Below are positions 1 to 19,840 of a stretch of 64,000 nucleotides of DNA, piece after piece. A program made the translations under genes and the position numbers. Location: positions 80,540,001-80,604,000 of the forward strand of contig NC_087436.1 in NCBI RefSeq assembly GCF_036321535.1, given 5' to 3'. The stretch comes from Camelus dromedarius (taxonomy: Eukaryota). Every line of letters starts with the position of its first letter. Positions within the stretch are counted from its first letter, which is position 1. The notes under the pieces are model-generated. The model was not told the origin of the DNA. It was given only the letters and a program-made list of their open reading frames with translations, and ran no database searches.

Positions 1-1217
1 ACAATGAACATTAAGATATTCCTCAAGATAAGACAATTTTTTAAATGTTCTATTTGTTATTAAACAACAGTTCAATAGATTGCTGAGCTGATCAAATGAG
101 ATAATACACATGAAAATCAACTTTGAAAAAGATCAAGACAGTAAAATTACTAATGGTATCTTTAACAATTAAGCCAACTTAATAATTACAACTGTTGTTT
201 TTGAGAAGGTGGAGAAGACCTAAGTTACATGAGCAATAGTGTATAATTACGTTATCTGACTCTGAATTGCAAGTTCATACAGATAAAGAGGTCTGGACAG
301 AAGCTGTAGTTAAATGATATATATGGGAGAGACTGAAAAGTCTCACTGACAAAATAAATCATCTCTGCGTAACAAATTAAAAACGTAGTTCAGAAGAACT
401 GTTTTACTGTCACCTGCTAATTTCAGTATGTTGCCATTGAAACACCTTAATCGGATCTCCCACTTAACTTTAAATGAGTCAAGGAGCTCATGGTAAAAGG
501 ATACAAATTTAGTGCTATCTTTAAAAAATTATATGGACTAAAAAGTAATTTTTAACTTTTATGAATCACAGAATTTCTTAAAACTTTGAAAGAAAAACAT
601 TCCTAGTCAAAGAATGTTGTATTAGTCTTTTAATTTCACTAATACTTAACAAATACATATTTAAATGATGATTTTACTTAAGGTTATGAGAATTAATAAA
701 AGAAATGATCAATATTAGCCCATCTTGAGAGTTGCCAATCATTTGATTTAAGCTTCAGCTTTCATGCTGCATTTCAGTACATACAGTTAGATGCAAAAAC
801 ACAGAAGGGGAGTTAGGAGAGCTCATTATCAGATTAAATAAGAATAGAACACAGACAATTTTAAAAGAAATGTATGTTCCCAGCCTACACTGAATAAATT
901 AAATTAGACAGCATTCAGAACAAGCAGAACACAAAACCTGTTAATTCTAAGTGTAGTACAACAGTTTTCTTTTGCAAAGTCCATTTAAAGCATAGTCATT
1001 TTCAAACTTATGCTTCAGGCTGATTATGTGAGACACATTAATAGTATTACACTTATTTCATTAATGAAAAAATCAAGCCCTAAACACCCCTTCCCACCTC
1101 CCTCCCCCCCAAAAAAAACACTTCCACAAGTTAGTCAGTAAAATAGTATTAGGACTCAGAGCTTCCATGCTTCTTTCTGTTTGATAATACATAACCACAC
1201 CTTGGGAATGAGATTAC

Positions 1218-1271
1218 CTGAAGGTGTTGTGCCTTTGAAATCCTTGGCAGACAGCGGGGCACACTGTTTTT
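1218..1271 (-). CDS. WDFY3: Candidate 54-nt alternative (cassette) WDFY3 exon adding 18 aa (EKQCAPLSAKDFKGTTPS)
   Basis: Acceptor cctttttttttaaacag| and donor CAG|gtaatc. The length is a multiple of 3, phase 1-1 matches the upstream exon, and there is no stop in the required frame. The flanks are repeat-free and motif-rich. Confidence 0.75.
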
Positions 1272-2119
1272 CTGTTTAAAAAAAAAGGCCAGGTTGTCTA
1301 ATTGGGGATTCACTACATTATACTAATCTCGCCACAAGATGCCAACTGTGGTCAGCATCACCTGGCTTCTACGGCACTGGGCCTCCGCCCAGTGGGGAAT
1401 GCACCACTGGGCACTACAGTGGCACCCAGCATGCAGAAAAGTCATTAATAATAAACTGAAGATACTATTTTTACACAGGTAGAATTTTCTGCTTCAATGA
1501 TGTAAATCAATCATGTGCCTTTAGAATTAAGAAGACTGAATGGCTGAACACAGCAAATAAACAGAAAAGACGAAGAAGAGTCTTAAGCCATACCTTGTAC
1601 ACAATATGGCCACAAAATTATTTTCTCAAATTAGTTGAGAGAGTCACTACATATACTGAACAAAATCACAGGGAGGCAATAACCAAGAGAGAATTAAGGG
1701 AGAGAAAACAGAACAGTGACGTTGCCCTAATGTATTACACATCAGTCCACATACTCATTTTGCATGTTGATATACCCAAAACATTCCATTTTTACTAATT
1801 TCTGACAGATAGATTTAAATAACAGAATTTCAGGTAAGTATGGTTCCTACTGAGACATCTACAATCCCTGTTAGAAGTGACCTGGTAAAAAGACTTGATG
1901 TGTGAATGGGGATCAGGTAAACAGAATAACAAGTATTTCACATCAAATTCAGAGAAGTCCTGGAAAAATAATCTTGCTCTAAAGTGCAACACATAGAGCC
2001 AATTTTTAAAAGAATAATAGAGGGTTCATTTCATCTGCTTTTTTTTCTTGGAGAACATTATATGCATGTAAATTATAACAAAATTACTTTCAGTGAGAAC
2101 TTCCTGTGAAATAAATAGT

Positions 2120-3947: not shown

Positions 3948-4300
3948 TGCCATGCACTGAACTGTGCTCCCAGCCCCAGATTCATATTTGAAGCCTAAAC
4001 CCCTAATGCGATGGTATTTGGAGGTGGAGCCTTTGGGAAGTAATTGGGTTTGGATGAGGTCACGAGGGTGGGGCCCTTGTGACGGGATTAATGCCCTTAT
4101 AAGAACAGACACCAGAGATCTCTCCCCTCCAGGCGAGACCACCCTGAGAAGGTGCATCTGCAAGCCAGGAGAGATCTCACGAGAAACCAGTCATGCAACA
4201 CCTTGATTCTGGGCTTTCAGCATCCAGAACCGTGAACAGAAATTTCTGTCGTTTATGCCACTGGTCTATGATATCTTGTGGCAGCCCAAGTAGACTAACA
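3948..4300 (+). mobile_element. MaLR solo LTR (MLT1A-like)
   Basis: TG...CA ends. ggtatttggaggtggagcctttgggaagtaatt...gatgaggtcacgagggtgggg...gggattaatgcccttataagaa...gcagcccaagtagactaaca. Confidence 0.85.
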
Positions 4301-4309
4301 TGCCAGTAA

Positions 4310-7270
4310 AACTATTGTTTAAAAGGATTTTTTAAAAAGTATAAACCCATAAGAACAAAGAAAACAGAAAAGGTAAAAGCAACAAAACTTTGGATTCTAA
4401 AACAGCAGAGAAGTCAGTGGTAACTGATTTAGCAAATTCTAGAATCTTAACTTAAAGCAAGTGAAAGGAAAATAGAAAAGCAAATTACTATAAGAGAACC
4501 TCCAAGAGGCTCAGAATTGGTACCTTCAGAAGCAGAAGTAAATGTGGGACTGTACGCAGAAGGACTGCTGAAGAATGTCTAAGAGCAGCTAGACCCAGAT
4601 CCCCATTACTATGTGGGTACTAGACTGGAGATTAATTCATTGAATAGAAAAAGAGAGGGTGTTTGGATTGAGATGGAGGAGGGACAGACAACGACATCAC
4701 GTCAGGCACAGTTGTGGTCTCATCATGAAGATAAAATAGATGCTTATGTACTAAATGTTAAGTAAGGGTCCTCAGACCTTTCTCCAACTTGGCTTCTGAA
4801 CTGTTCAGAGTCAGCTATATACTAAGTAAAGATTGGATATTCTTCTGTAGGGACTCTGCCTAGCTCAAGGGAAAGATGGTCAACAGAATGGCCCAGCAAG
4901 ATGACCCTGGGCTGAGGCCCACATCTGCAAGCTCCACCCACAATTACAAAGCTACCCTACAGCTTTCCAAGGATGACACACGTGAGGGCATTCTCTAATA
5001 TAAAAGACAGAGACAAAAACAAATTAACAAAAAAGTCAACCTGAAAGAAAGAGACTATTTAGGAAGATAAAAATCTGAAAAGAAAAGAAACGGAAAAAAA
5101 ATTAAAAAGAAAAAGAAATCTCAGAGAATTAAGAGAATCCATGAAAAAAACATACCAACAAAAAAGAAAAAAACTCCTAGAAATTAAAATTATAATGTCA
5201 CAAATGAAAAAGAAACTTATAGAAGGGAAAACTGAAGAGCTCTTTTAGCAACTAGATTTAAAAAAAATAAATAGAAAATAAGACAGGAAAGATAAAAAAA
5301 CGATAGTGACAATCTTAAGGATACATGTGATGAGAAAGAGAAAACAGAGGGGAGGATATTATTACATAAATAATTCATAAACTTTCTCAAAATTAAAGGA
5401 TATGAATTCCCAGACTAAACTAGTCCAATTGAGTACTCAGTATAATGTATAAAACAGGTCCACTCCAAGGCATGTTATCATGACATTTTAGAACAGGAGG
5501 GCCAACAAGAGGATTCTAAATTTTCCCATTTTTTAAAAAAAATGAAAAGAATAGAAAAGAAACAGGCCACAGACAGAGAATCAAGAATCTGGGTAGCTTT
5601 AGATTTTTCAATACCAATGTAAGAATCTAGAATATGATGGAAAAGTAATTTTTAAACTCTGAGATAAAATGACTTCCAACCTTGAATCTGATACCCATTG
5701 AAAGGAGGATAAATGCAATGGAAGCTGCGAGATTTTCCAAAATAACCCCGAGAGGTCACCCTGGGCTGCCCAGAGAAGGACCCACTGACCATGTACCCAG
5801 AGGTACTGCACCTAAGCTCAATTTCCCATGACACTGGTAGCTTCCATTCTCTGTAGGAGGGCCTGCAACTCCCCCTGTGCCCACAAATCTCCTGAGGCTT
5901 AACAGCTAGATTTCTCAAATAACTTCTGTAAACATCCAGTAAGTACTCAAATCCAGTACTCAAACAGCCTCCATCATGAACAGTCTGCGTTTCTTCACCG
6001 ATGAGATGGCAGTCATGCTTGGATTTTAGGATGGGGTATGCCAAGCACAATTCTCTGTGAGAAAATGAGGGTGAAGGACTTGTGACTTCTTTTCCCTTGC
6101 TGAAGCTTGGTTTTCTAAGTTTCCCTTTTCTGCAATAAAGTCGTCCCATATGACGTGCTGGAGTTTGTTCTGAGCCCTGCTACCTGAAAACTTGTCAACT
6201 TGAACGTTATCACTTTCCTTGGTGAAGGGAAAGGAACTCATTTTAATATAGCAAGAGTCAAAGAAATCTTCACTCACGACATTTCTAAAAACAAAATCCA
6301 AAAACCAAAAATGGTAACTCCCCTGCATCCTTTCTCAGGAAGCTGTTGAACAAGACACTTTACCAAAACTGAGGAAGTTAATTTGAGAAAATAGATGACA
6401 TGAGATTCAGGAAACAGAGGCTCTATCACAAAGAAGCGGAAAGGCATCCCAGGATGACATGAGAGAAGATGCAAACATGACAGCTATCCAGCTGGCTTAG
6501 GGCGCAGCTACTACAGATTAAGGCAGGCCAGAAAGTTCTGTAAGAGTTACTTGCAAGAAGATGAAACTGATACAGTATCTGATGTCTTCAGTCATATTGA
6601 GGGGAGGTTCGAGAAAACAGAGGAGTAGGGGAAGATTTTATGAAGAAAATATTGAAAACTAGTTTTTTTTAAGGCAATTATTAACTCTGATAGAGGTGAA
6701 AACGTTTTCAAGAAAGGAAAAGTAAACACAGCATACCATATTGCTCATCTTTGTCTAGTATTTTAACTCACAATAATATAATGAGGGGGAGGATATAGCT
6801 CAAGTGCTTAGAGCACATGCTTAGTATGCATGAGGTCCTGGGTTCAATCCCCAGTACCTCCTCCAAAAATAAATACATCAACCTAACTACCTGCCTCCCC
6901 AAAATAAATTTTAAAAATAATGATTACTAATCTAGTCAAACTATGAGAGGATGATATGGGGGTAAGAAGTGTGCATCTGTGGGGTAGCGATGGTTAGCTT
7001 AAGAGTAAAAGTCTCATTTTCTCCTGTGGGAAGTCAGAAGATAGTGTCTAAGTATGAAAAATCAAGAGCACACACTGTAAGCATGTGACATAGAGATACA
7101 CACCAAAAACAGGTTAAGAGAGGTTAAAAAGTGCATCTCAGGAGTAGAAACTAGGGATGAAGCAGGATAGTGAAAAGGAGATGCTGTTTTTAATAATAAG
7201 CCTTTTAACTATTTGACCATAAAACCATCTGCCCATATACTTTTAAAACTGAAAATAAAAAATAAAAAAG
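4310..7270 (+). mobile_element. Degraded HAL1/old L1 ORF1-type element, interrupted by insertions
   Basis: A-rich ORF1-like sequence. Contains cctttctcaggaagct...gacatgagattcaggaaacagagg and a 3' end ataagccttttaactatttgac typical of HAL1. Confidence 0.6.
6785..6920 (+). mobile_element. tRNA-Ala(AGC)-derived SINE (camelid vic-1 type)
   Basis: ggggaggatatagctcaagtg...tgcttag...gaggtcctgggttcaatccccagtacctcc carries A and B boxes, followed by an A-rich tail. Short duplication ataatga on both sides. Confidence 0.88.
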
Positions 7271-8310: not shown

Positions 8311-8434
8311 CTGTGGATTTGTTTGATGCTCTCCTTCGAATTTCTGTCACCATCAGTCGTGAGACTTGTGTTGTGAACTGCAGAAGATCAGAAAATTTTT
8401 CTGTCATTGTATTTGGCGGAGCATTTCCAAAAAC
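8311..8434 (-). CDS. WDFY3: WDFY3 second coding exon (124 nt, aa 61-101 plus 1 nt)
   Basis: Translates to VFGNAPPNTMTEKFSDLLQFTTQVSRLMVTEIRRRASNKST and continues the previous exon in frame. T-rich tract with ccacag| acceptor, donor CAG|gtattt, ends in phase 1. Confidence 0.96.
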
Positions 8435-19660: not shown

Positions 19661-19840
19661 CCTGTTAAACACTGGCAGCATCATGTACAGCTTCTCTTCT
19701 TGTTCCTTCTGAGTCATGTGCCGGGGAGGATGGCACAACTCAGTGAAGAGACGGCGGAGGTGCATCAGTCCTAAGGCATTGTCTTGTGGGCTGCACTCCT
19801 CCTGCCTCGGCCGCCCCATGATCCTCTTCACCATGTTCAT
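19661..19840 (-). CDS. WDFY3: WDFY3/ALFY first coding exon, CDS part (aa 1-60). The full exon is 19661-19871, including 31 nt of 5' UTR.
   Basis: Translates to MNMVKRIMGRPRQEECSPQDNALGLMHLRRLFTELCHPPRHMTQKEQEEKLYMMLPVFNR, which I recognise as the WDFY3 N-terminus. Acceptor tccctgcag|AATTAG at 19872/19871, donor AGG|gtgagt at 19661/19660, phase 0. Confidence 0.97.

What the first reader, a model, noticed from the sequence alone, without database searches (positions are those of the whole stretch)
1218..1271. Hidden 54-nt in-frame cassette exon in WDFY3 adding an 18-aa insert after Thr101
Seen: on the minus strand, cctttttttttaaacag|AAAAACAGTGTGCCCCGCTGTCTGCCAAGGATTTCAAAGGCACAACACCTTCAG|gtaatc. 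Spliced to the phase-1 end of 8311-8434, it reads ...NKST-EKQCAPLSAKDFKGTTPS-E... with no stop. Known: the canonical protein as I recall it reads NKSTEAASRAIV without this segment, and short symmetric exons are typical of tissue-regulated (often neural or muscle) splicing. Inference: this is a regulated ALFY isoform with an S/T/P/K-rich insert containing a TP site. It may already appear in predicted transcript models; I know of no function for it.
Basis: partly seen in the sequence, partly recalled or inferred. Interest (0 to 1): 0.75.

Follow-up and report, generated by a model that had tools for sequence, protein, structure and literature searches.

The report
Known optional exon in WDFY3
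This is a real but optional 54-base piece of the autophagy scaffold gene WDFY3 that adds 18 amino acids; it was confirmed in human RNA in 2007 and is annotated in several other mammals, but what it does is still untested.

Summary
The exon is there as described. Window 1218-1271 (minus strand) is 54 nt with AG/GT ends and phase 1 at both ends, open in frame between exon 8311-8434 and the next exon 2.6 kb outside the window. It is the best-scoring candidate in the 10.9-kb intron.

It is not new. Leparc and Mitra 2007 (PMC1904267) predicted the human orthologue and sequenced RT-PCR products across both junctions. Public protein records carry the insert after Thr101 in 8 named species from 5 placental orders. 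No muroid-rodent, marsupial, bird, reptile or fish record I saw carries it.

The insert falls in a short turn between two helices of the N-terminal solenoid (low-confidence models). It evolves much faster than its invariant flanks (85% vs 100% pairwise identity). Its T-P site is invariant; the S-P ERK site proposed in 2007 occurs only in the primate sequences.

Neural or muscle regulation is unsupported: it is too long for a microexon and I obtained no tissue or read data. Most likely it is a minor, tolerated loop insert that may tune partner binding. I found no functional study. Already known; low interest.

The parts
1218..1271 (-). 54-nt phase-1/phase-1 cassette exon of WDFY3 (18-codon insert after Thr101)
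   Evidence: Sequence and frame; human orthologue validated; insert in 16 protein records of 8 named species
1272..1290 (-). 3' splice site: T-rich polypyrimidine tract and AG
   Evidence: pyrimidine fraction 0.92, same as the upstream constitutive exon
1212..1217 (-). 5' splice site (GT donor), 7 of 9 consensus positions
8311..8434 (-). Upstream constitutive coding exon (124 nt, residues 61-101, ends in phase 1)
   Evidence: 98-100% identical to the best WDFY3 hits
19661..19840 (-). Coding part of the first coding exon of WDFY3 (residues 1-60)
   Evidence: start located; end read from the translation
1130..1170 (-). Downstream intronic GCATG (1170) and ACTAAC (1135): candidate RBFOX and QKI sites, function not shown
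   Evidence: chance rates 0.24 and 0.14 per 300 nt, so weak
1310..1445 (-). GC-rich upstream intron segment folding into three hairpins, with a TGCATG at 1435; relation to the exon not shown

Best explanation
A cassette exon of WDFY3, at least as old as the ancestor of primates, rodents, carnivores and ungulates, that is usually skipped and sometimes included. When included it keeps the frame and puts an 18-residue flexible loop into the short turn between two helices (about residues 75-96 and 101-112) near the start of the alpha-solenoid. The full-length scaffold is still made, with its PH-BEACH, WD40 and FYVE end untouched. The loop most likely acts as a small surface add-on (conserved Cys, K-D-F and T-T-P-S, a candidate proline-directed kinase site) that tunes N-terminal partner binding or localisation. 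SHOWN: sequence, frame, human splicing at both junctions (2007), annotation in 8 species. INFERRED: splicing in this species (about 0.9), minor inclusion in most species, loop position (low-confidence models), any effect on the protein (about 0.5).
For: Human exon predicted and confirmed by cloning and sequencing of 5' and 3' junction products (PMC1904267 Table 3, supplementary files 4 and 10). Same 18-residue insert at the same junction in chimpanzee, sooty mangabey, grey seal, two whales, white rhinoceros, marmot and beaver. No length change in any of the 16 records; 10 of 17 positions invariant over 8 rows. Window and human exon agree at 50 of 54 nt (my comparison by eye). Similarity to a read-through protein with the primate-type insert extends about 170 nt upstream and about 40 nt downstream (P0069). 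Best splice sites of 86 frame-compatible candidates. Models: no-insert H75-96, turn, H101-112; with insert H75-98, coil 99-117, H118-133. Minor status: absent from ESTs in 2005 and found by semi-nested PCR on pooled RNA; 0 of 61 junction-spanning Logan-only proteins carry it (biased set, species unknown).
Against: No reads from this species were laid (one search gave no alignment), so inclusion here is inferred from orthologues. The peptide is far less constrained than its flanks (mean pairwise identity 0.85, minimum 0.59, vs 1.00). Three of the 4 window-human differences change the amino acid, whereas both differences in 114 nt of the upstream exon are silent (by eye). Complete isoform series of several muroid rodents lack it, so it looks dispensable. 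Both models are poor (mean pLDDT 46.8 and 54.4, shallow alignments), and confidence over residues 63-200 drops below 50 with the insert, so destabilisation is not excluded. 'Minor' may not hold everywhere: 9 of 13 junction-spanning beaver records include it. No peptide-level or phosphosite evidence was found.
Confidence: 0.55

Rival explanations
1. A real but nearly neutral minor exon. It is included at low level and tolerated because it keeps the frame and lands in a turn; its conservation reflects RNA-level constraint (splice sites, an overlapping regulatory element) more than a peptide function.
For: Three amino-acid-changing differences vs one silent against human (by eye); insert identity 0.85 vs 1.00 for the flanks; conserved flanking intron; not seen in muroid, chinchilla X1 or Fukomys X1 records; an unrelated 22-residue insert at the same junction in opossum shows the turn tolerates insertions (P0254); the 2007 S-P motif is confined to the primate sequences.
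Against: Length, frame and 10 of 17 residues kept across five orders; included in most beaver models (9 of 13); four substitutions are too few to estimate a rate ratio.
Confidence: 0.33
2. A strongly tissue-regulated (neural or muscle) exon driven by RBFOX or QKI.
For: GCATG 48 nt and ACTAAC 83 nt downstream of the donor; WDFY3 is a recurrent QKI splicing target (PMC5548867 passage; exon not named); short symmetric exons are associated with tissue regulation (PMC1201369, title and abstract start only).
Against: The motifs occur at 0.24 and 0.14 per 300 nt by chance; the upstream TGCATG falls where the primate-type read-through has Tyr for Cys, so it seems not conserved; no UGC within 85 nt upstream of the acceptor. 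The regulated WDFY3 exons with coordinates in the papers I read are other exons (51-nt exon 46/45, an 84-nt exon). The QKI signature includes mouse, where this exon is not seen in the records I had.
Confidence: 0.2
3. In this species the exon is a silent relic: intact in sequence but never spliced in.
For: No read evidence for this genome was obtained; apparent loss in muroids shows the exon can be dropped.
Against: Both splice sites and the frame are intact and strong; 50 of 54 nt match the validated human exon; laurasiatherian relatives (seal, whales, rhinoceros) have it in their models.
Confidence: 0.07

Closest known systems
Human WDFY3 intron-2 cassette exon of Leparc and Mitra 2007 (PMC1904267, Table 3; May 2004 assembly chr4:86122788-86122841)
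   Same: Orthologue: 54 nt, same junctions and phase, 50 of 54 nt and 14 of 17 internal residues identical.
   Different: The S-P 'Erk1' motif for which it was picked is missing here (S-A); the T-P further on is shared. That paper gave no tissue pattern or function for this exon in the sections I read.
RefSeq/GenBank WDFY3 isoforms with the insert (e.g. XP_035951866.1 grey seal X1, XP_059778678.1 Rice's whale X1, XP_014643337.1 white rhinoceros X2, XP_011895603.1 sooty mangabey X1, PNI83107.1 chimpanzee isoform 12)
   Same: Same insert after Thr101, same length.
   Different: 2-6 residue differences from the window; these are models, not functional studies. I could not check whether this species' own annotation has it.
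WDFY3 exon 46 (51 nt, 17 aa; exon 45 in mouse), MBNL/RBFOX2-regulated (PMC5453322, PMC4446417, PMC9977177)
   Same: Another short, frame-preserving S/T/P/K-rich cassette exon in the same gene.
   Different: A different exon far downstream, with measured regulation and an autophagy effect on forced skipping; none of that is known for this exon.
Neural microexons (SRRM4-dependent)
   Same: Short, symmetric, inserted in a predicted surface loop of a trafficking/autophagy protein with autism links.
   Different: 54 nt is twice the 27-nt limit; no UGC enhancer near the acceptor; not seen outside placental mammals in my records.

Membership tests
Frame-preserving cassette exon | Canonical AG/GT sites with a pyrimidine tract inside an intron | tested here: met
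Frame-preserving cassette exon | Length a multiple of 3, same phase at both ends, no stop | tested here: met
Frame-preserving cassette exon | Both inclusion and skipping forms exist in orthologues | tested here: met
   16 insert and 256 skip records among 273 spanning the junction; both forms in beaver and chimpanzee (P0043, P0099); human RT-PCR
Frame-preserving cassette exon | Junction reads in this species | tested here: inconclusive
   Runs listed, but one search returned no alignment
Orthologue of the 2007 human WDFY3 exon | Same flanking exons, length and sequence | tested here: met
   50 of 54 nt (by eye)
Orthologue of the 2007 human WDFY3 exon | S-P Erk1-type motif | tested here: not met
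   Present in chimpanzee, mangabey and human; absent in the window, seal, whales, rhinoceros, marmot and beaver. This lowers the ERK-site idea, not the orthology.
Neural microexon | Length 3-27 nt | tested here: not met
   54 nt; limit as given in an abstract listed
Neural microexon | UGC enhancer close upstream of the acceptor (recalled feature) | tested here: not met
   Nearest upstream TGC is at 1357, 86 nt away
Neural microexon | Neuron-enriched inclusion | not testable with these tools
   No tissue-labelled read data obtained
Poison (NMD) exon | In-frame stop or frameshift on inclusion | tested here: not met
   A second AG 8 nt inside the exon would give a 46-nt frameshifting form; its use is untested.
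Transposon-derived exon | Overlap with an interspersed repeat | tested here: inconclusive
   Single self-match for the exon region and both flanks in the own genome, but that search skips very common words; no copy in 114 kb on hand; no repeat library available

The most novel reading that the evidence does not exclude
A placental-mammal invention, lost in mice and rats, that gives ALFY a tissue-switched N-terminal loop with a proline-directed phosphosite (the invariant T-P, not the S-P proposed in 2007) and changes its cargo or partner choice. Mouse Wdfy3 models would then lack an isoform of an autism and brain-size gene, and human variants in or near this exon, which is outside the canonical transcript, would be overlooked.
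Probability: 0.12. Interest if true: 0.5.

Novelty: already known. Interest (0 to 1): 0.15.

Why it matters
As it stands, little: it confirms in another mammal an exon validated in human in 2007 and present in several annotations. The kinase motif proposed in 2007 is primate-only while a different T-P site is invariant, and the exon seems missing from muroid rodent annotations. If it proved tissue-regulated and functional, it would matter for interpreting WDFY3 variants and for the limits of mouse models; that is directly testable with public RNA-seq.

Tried and rejected
Reads: 24 runs were listed, but the one lay returned no alignment. The word shares are therefore no evidence, and splicing in this species and any tissue pattern stay open.

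Profile-free search of the open frame around the exon against 1.84 billion representatives gave 3 hits: P0069 is a true intron read-through; P0230 and P0231 are unrelated repeat proteins scoring by summed weak matches, rejected.

The 120 full-length proteins listed (best 120 of 255) all skip the exon, but they were ranked by a no-insert query, so I do not use this as an inclusion rate.

No solved structure (0 hits to E 1) and no Pfam family over the N-terminal 290-340 residues. No fold search was run because both models are low-confidence.

Upstream hairpin cluster: z -2.95, but picked after the fact and only second of 51 intron tiles, no Rfam match; not accepted as a regulatory structure.

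Placing the species by tblastn of 11 proteins on neighbouring exons was uninformative; the organism is left unnamed.

Earlier scan findings: none.

Literature: peptide strings of the primate insert occur in 1 paper only. Searches showed no functional study of this exon; I read passages of only 8 papers. The library lacks most subscription papers, supplements are not searched, and splicing atlases were not available, so inclusion levels may well be on record there.

Full report
Observation. The window is G000:C1:80540001-80604000 of a 2.3-Gb genome and holds the 5' coding part of WDFY3 on the minus strand. The first coding exon starts at 19840 and the next is 8311-8434 (124 nt, phase-1 end). 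Window 1218-1271 is 54 nt between a T-rich acceptor and a GT donor and reads on from the upstream exon without a stop. The next canonical exon is outside the window at L002:7429, also phase 1. In the 10,881-nt intron there are 2320 YAG..GT pairs of 30-150 nt, 770 symmetric and 86 open in the right frame; 3 of 86 pass loose splice-site cut-offs and only this one passes the stricter cut-off, scoring like the constitutive upstream exon (a crude count, not a trained model).

It is in print. A literature search listed Leparc and Mitra 2007 (PMC1904267). I read its abstract, Methods, algorithm overview, human validation section and Discussion, its WDFY3 rows in supplementary files 4 and 10 and part 1 of 2 of file 10. 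Table 3 lists this exon among 26 novel human exons confirmed by cloning and sequencing. File 4 gives it as 54 nt at chr4:86122788-86122841. File 10 has one sequenced product across the upstream junction and one across the downstream junction. The test was semi-nested RT-PCR with an exon-specific primer on RNA pooled from 18 tissues, for exons absent from ESTs, so it shows existence but neither level nor tissue. By eye the window's exon matches the human one at 50 of 54 nt.

It is annotated elsewhere. Of 336 proteins fetched, 273 span the junction: 256 skip, 16 carry this insert, 1 carries another; 38 stop or run into the intron there and 25 lack the anchor. The 16 come from chimpanzee (P0043), sooty mangabey (P0301), grey seal (P0077), Rice's and gray whale (P0232, P0233), white rhinoceros (P0234), marmot (P0245) and beaver (9 records) (for names; 13, 20, 33, 67 for sequences). 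That is five orders on both sides of the primate-rodent / carnivore-ungulate split. The ratio is not an inclusion rate: 120 records are the best 120 of 255 for a no-insert query, and only 15 of the 2650 members of the main cluster were listed. In beaver 9 of 13 junction-spanning records include it. RefSeq series running unbroken from X1 lack it in Mastomys (X1-X6), Meriones (X1-X7), Psammomys (X1-X7), Onychomys (X1-X5) and Myodes (X1-X4), as do the rat and mouse records seen (mouse X1-X3 were not among them), chinchilla X1, Fukomys X1, golden mole X1, and the marsupial, bird, reptile and fish records. This suggests a placental origin and loss in muroids; that rests on annotation only, since I had no genome DNA of those species.

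Constraint. Over 8 rows (window plus 7 species) the 17 internal residues have mean pairwise identity 0.85 (minimum 0.59) with 10 invariant positions, against 1.00 for 35 residues upstream and 24 downstream. Against human, 3 of 4 nucleotide differences change the residue, while both differences in 114 nt of the upstream exon are silent (by eye); four changes are too few for a rate. A read-through protein with the primate-type insert (P0069) follows the window's intron for about 170 nt upstream and 40 nt downstream. The S-P site that made the 2007 algorithm pick the exon is present only in the primate sequences; T-T-P-S is invariant.

Structure. No solved relative and no Pfam family cover this region. 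AlphaFold2 models on shallow alignments are weak (mean pLDDT 54.4 without, 46.8 with the insert). Both give a helical solenoid. The junction sits in a four-residue turn between helices 75-96 and 101-112, and the insert is modelled as coil 99-117 with both helices kept. An unrelated 22-residue insert at the same junction in an opossum model (P0254) also suggests the turn tolerates insertions. Cargo binding of ALFY maps to the distant PH-BEACH domain (PMC11554844, passages), so the insert should not remove that function.

Regulation. There is a TGCATG 164 nt upstream, and a GCATG 48 nt and an ACTAAC 83 nt downstream, against chance rates of 0.08, 0.24 and 0.14 per 300 nt. The upstream one appears not to be kept in the primate-type read-through. 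The exon is too long for a microexon and has no UGC near the acceptor. The regulated WDFY3 exons I could place in the literature are others: exon 46/45 and an 84-nt exon (PMC5453322 passages and supplement rows; PMC4446417 passages and supplement rows; PMC9977177 supplement passages; PMC9117662 passages). PMC5548867 names WDFY3 as a QKI target without naming the exon (passage). PMC12569832 concerns another phosphosite (passages). No reads of this species were laid, so inclusion here and any tissue pattern remain open.

How it most likely works. The spliceosome mostly joins 8311 to the next exon. Sometimes it includes the 54 nt, giving a full-length ALFY with an 18-residue flexible loop near the N-terminus that may tune partner binding or localisation, possibly through the T-P site. 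Existence is shown in human and modelled in 8 species; use in this species is inferred (about 0.9); a protein-level role is about even odds. The main rival is a tolerated, nearly neutral minor exon kept by RNA-level constraint. Strong neural or muscle regulation is possible but has no support here.

Verdict. Observation confirmed, interpretation partly supported, already known. Peptide strings of the insert occur in one paper of the library, and searches showed no functional study, within the limits of that library. Interest 0.15. The boldest reading not excluded, a regulated phospho-loop isoform that mice lack, gets probability 0.12 and interest 0.5.

Noticed in passing
P0254 (Monodelphis domestica WDFY3 isoform X8), junction equivalent to window 8311: An unrelated 22-residue in-frame insert at exactly the same junction, suggesting an independent exon gain at a tolerant turn.
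   Followed up: no
Protein records of muroid rodents: No muroid record seen carries the insert, including series complete from X1, while beaver and marmot do; possible loss in the mouse-rat lineage.
   Followed up: partly
window 1310-1445, minus strand: GC-rich intron segment (54% GC) folding into three hairpins, z -2.95; second of 51 tiles, no Rfam match, no second copy found. It recalls the internal palindromes of old DNA-transposon fossils (from memory, untested).
   Followed up: partly
window 1218-1271, 8 nt inside the exon: A second AG that would give a 46-nt frameshifting version if used; also present in the human exon.
   Followed up: no
window 7076-7150 and 4113-4157, minus strand: Two other frame-compatible AG..GT segments (75 and 45 nt) pass the looser splice-site cut-off; no support from any protein record seen.
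   Followed up: no
L002-L006: Eighteen further WDFY3 coding segments continue downstream of the window over 50 kb (tblastn).
   Followed up: partly
Beaver records P0260-P0272: 9 of 13 junction-spanning records include the exon, among them all five full-length isoforms of the older annotation, so it may be a major form in that species.
   Followed up: no
window 8311-8330, minus strand: The residues just before the junction form a basic R-R-R-A-S stretch, a PKA-like consensus by recall, invariant in the 16 aligned vertebrate sequences; the insert lands four residues after its Ser.
   Followed up: no
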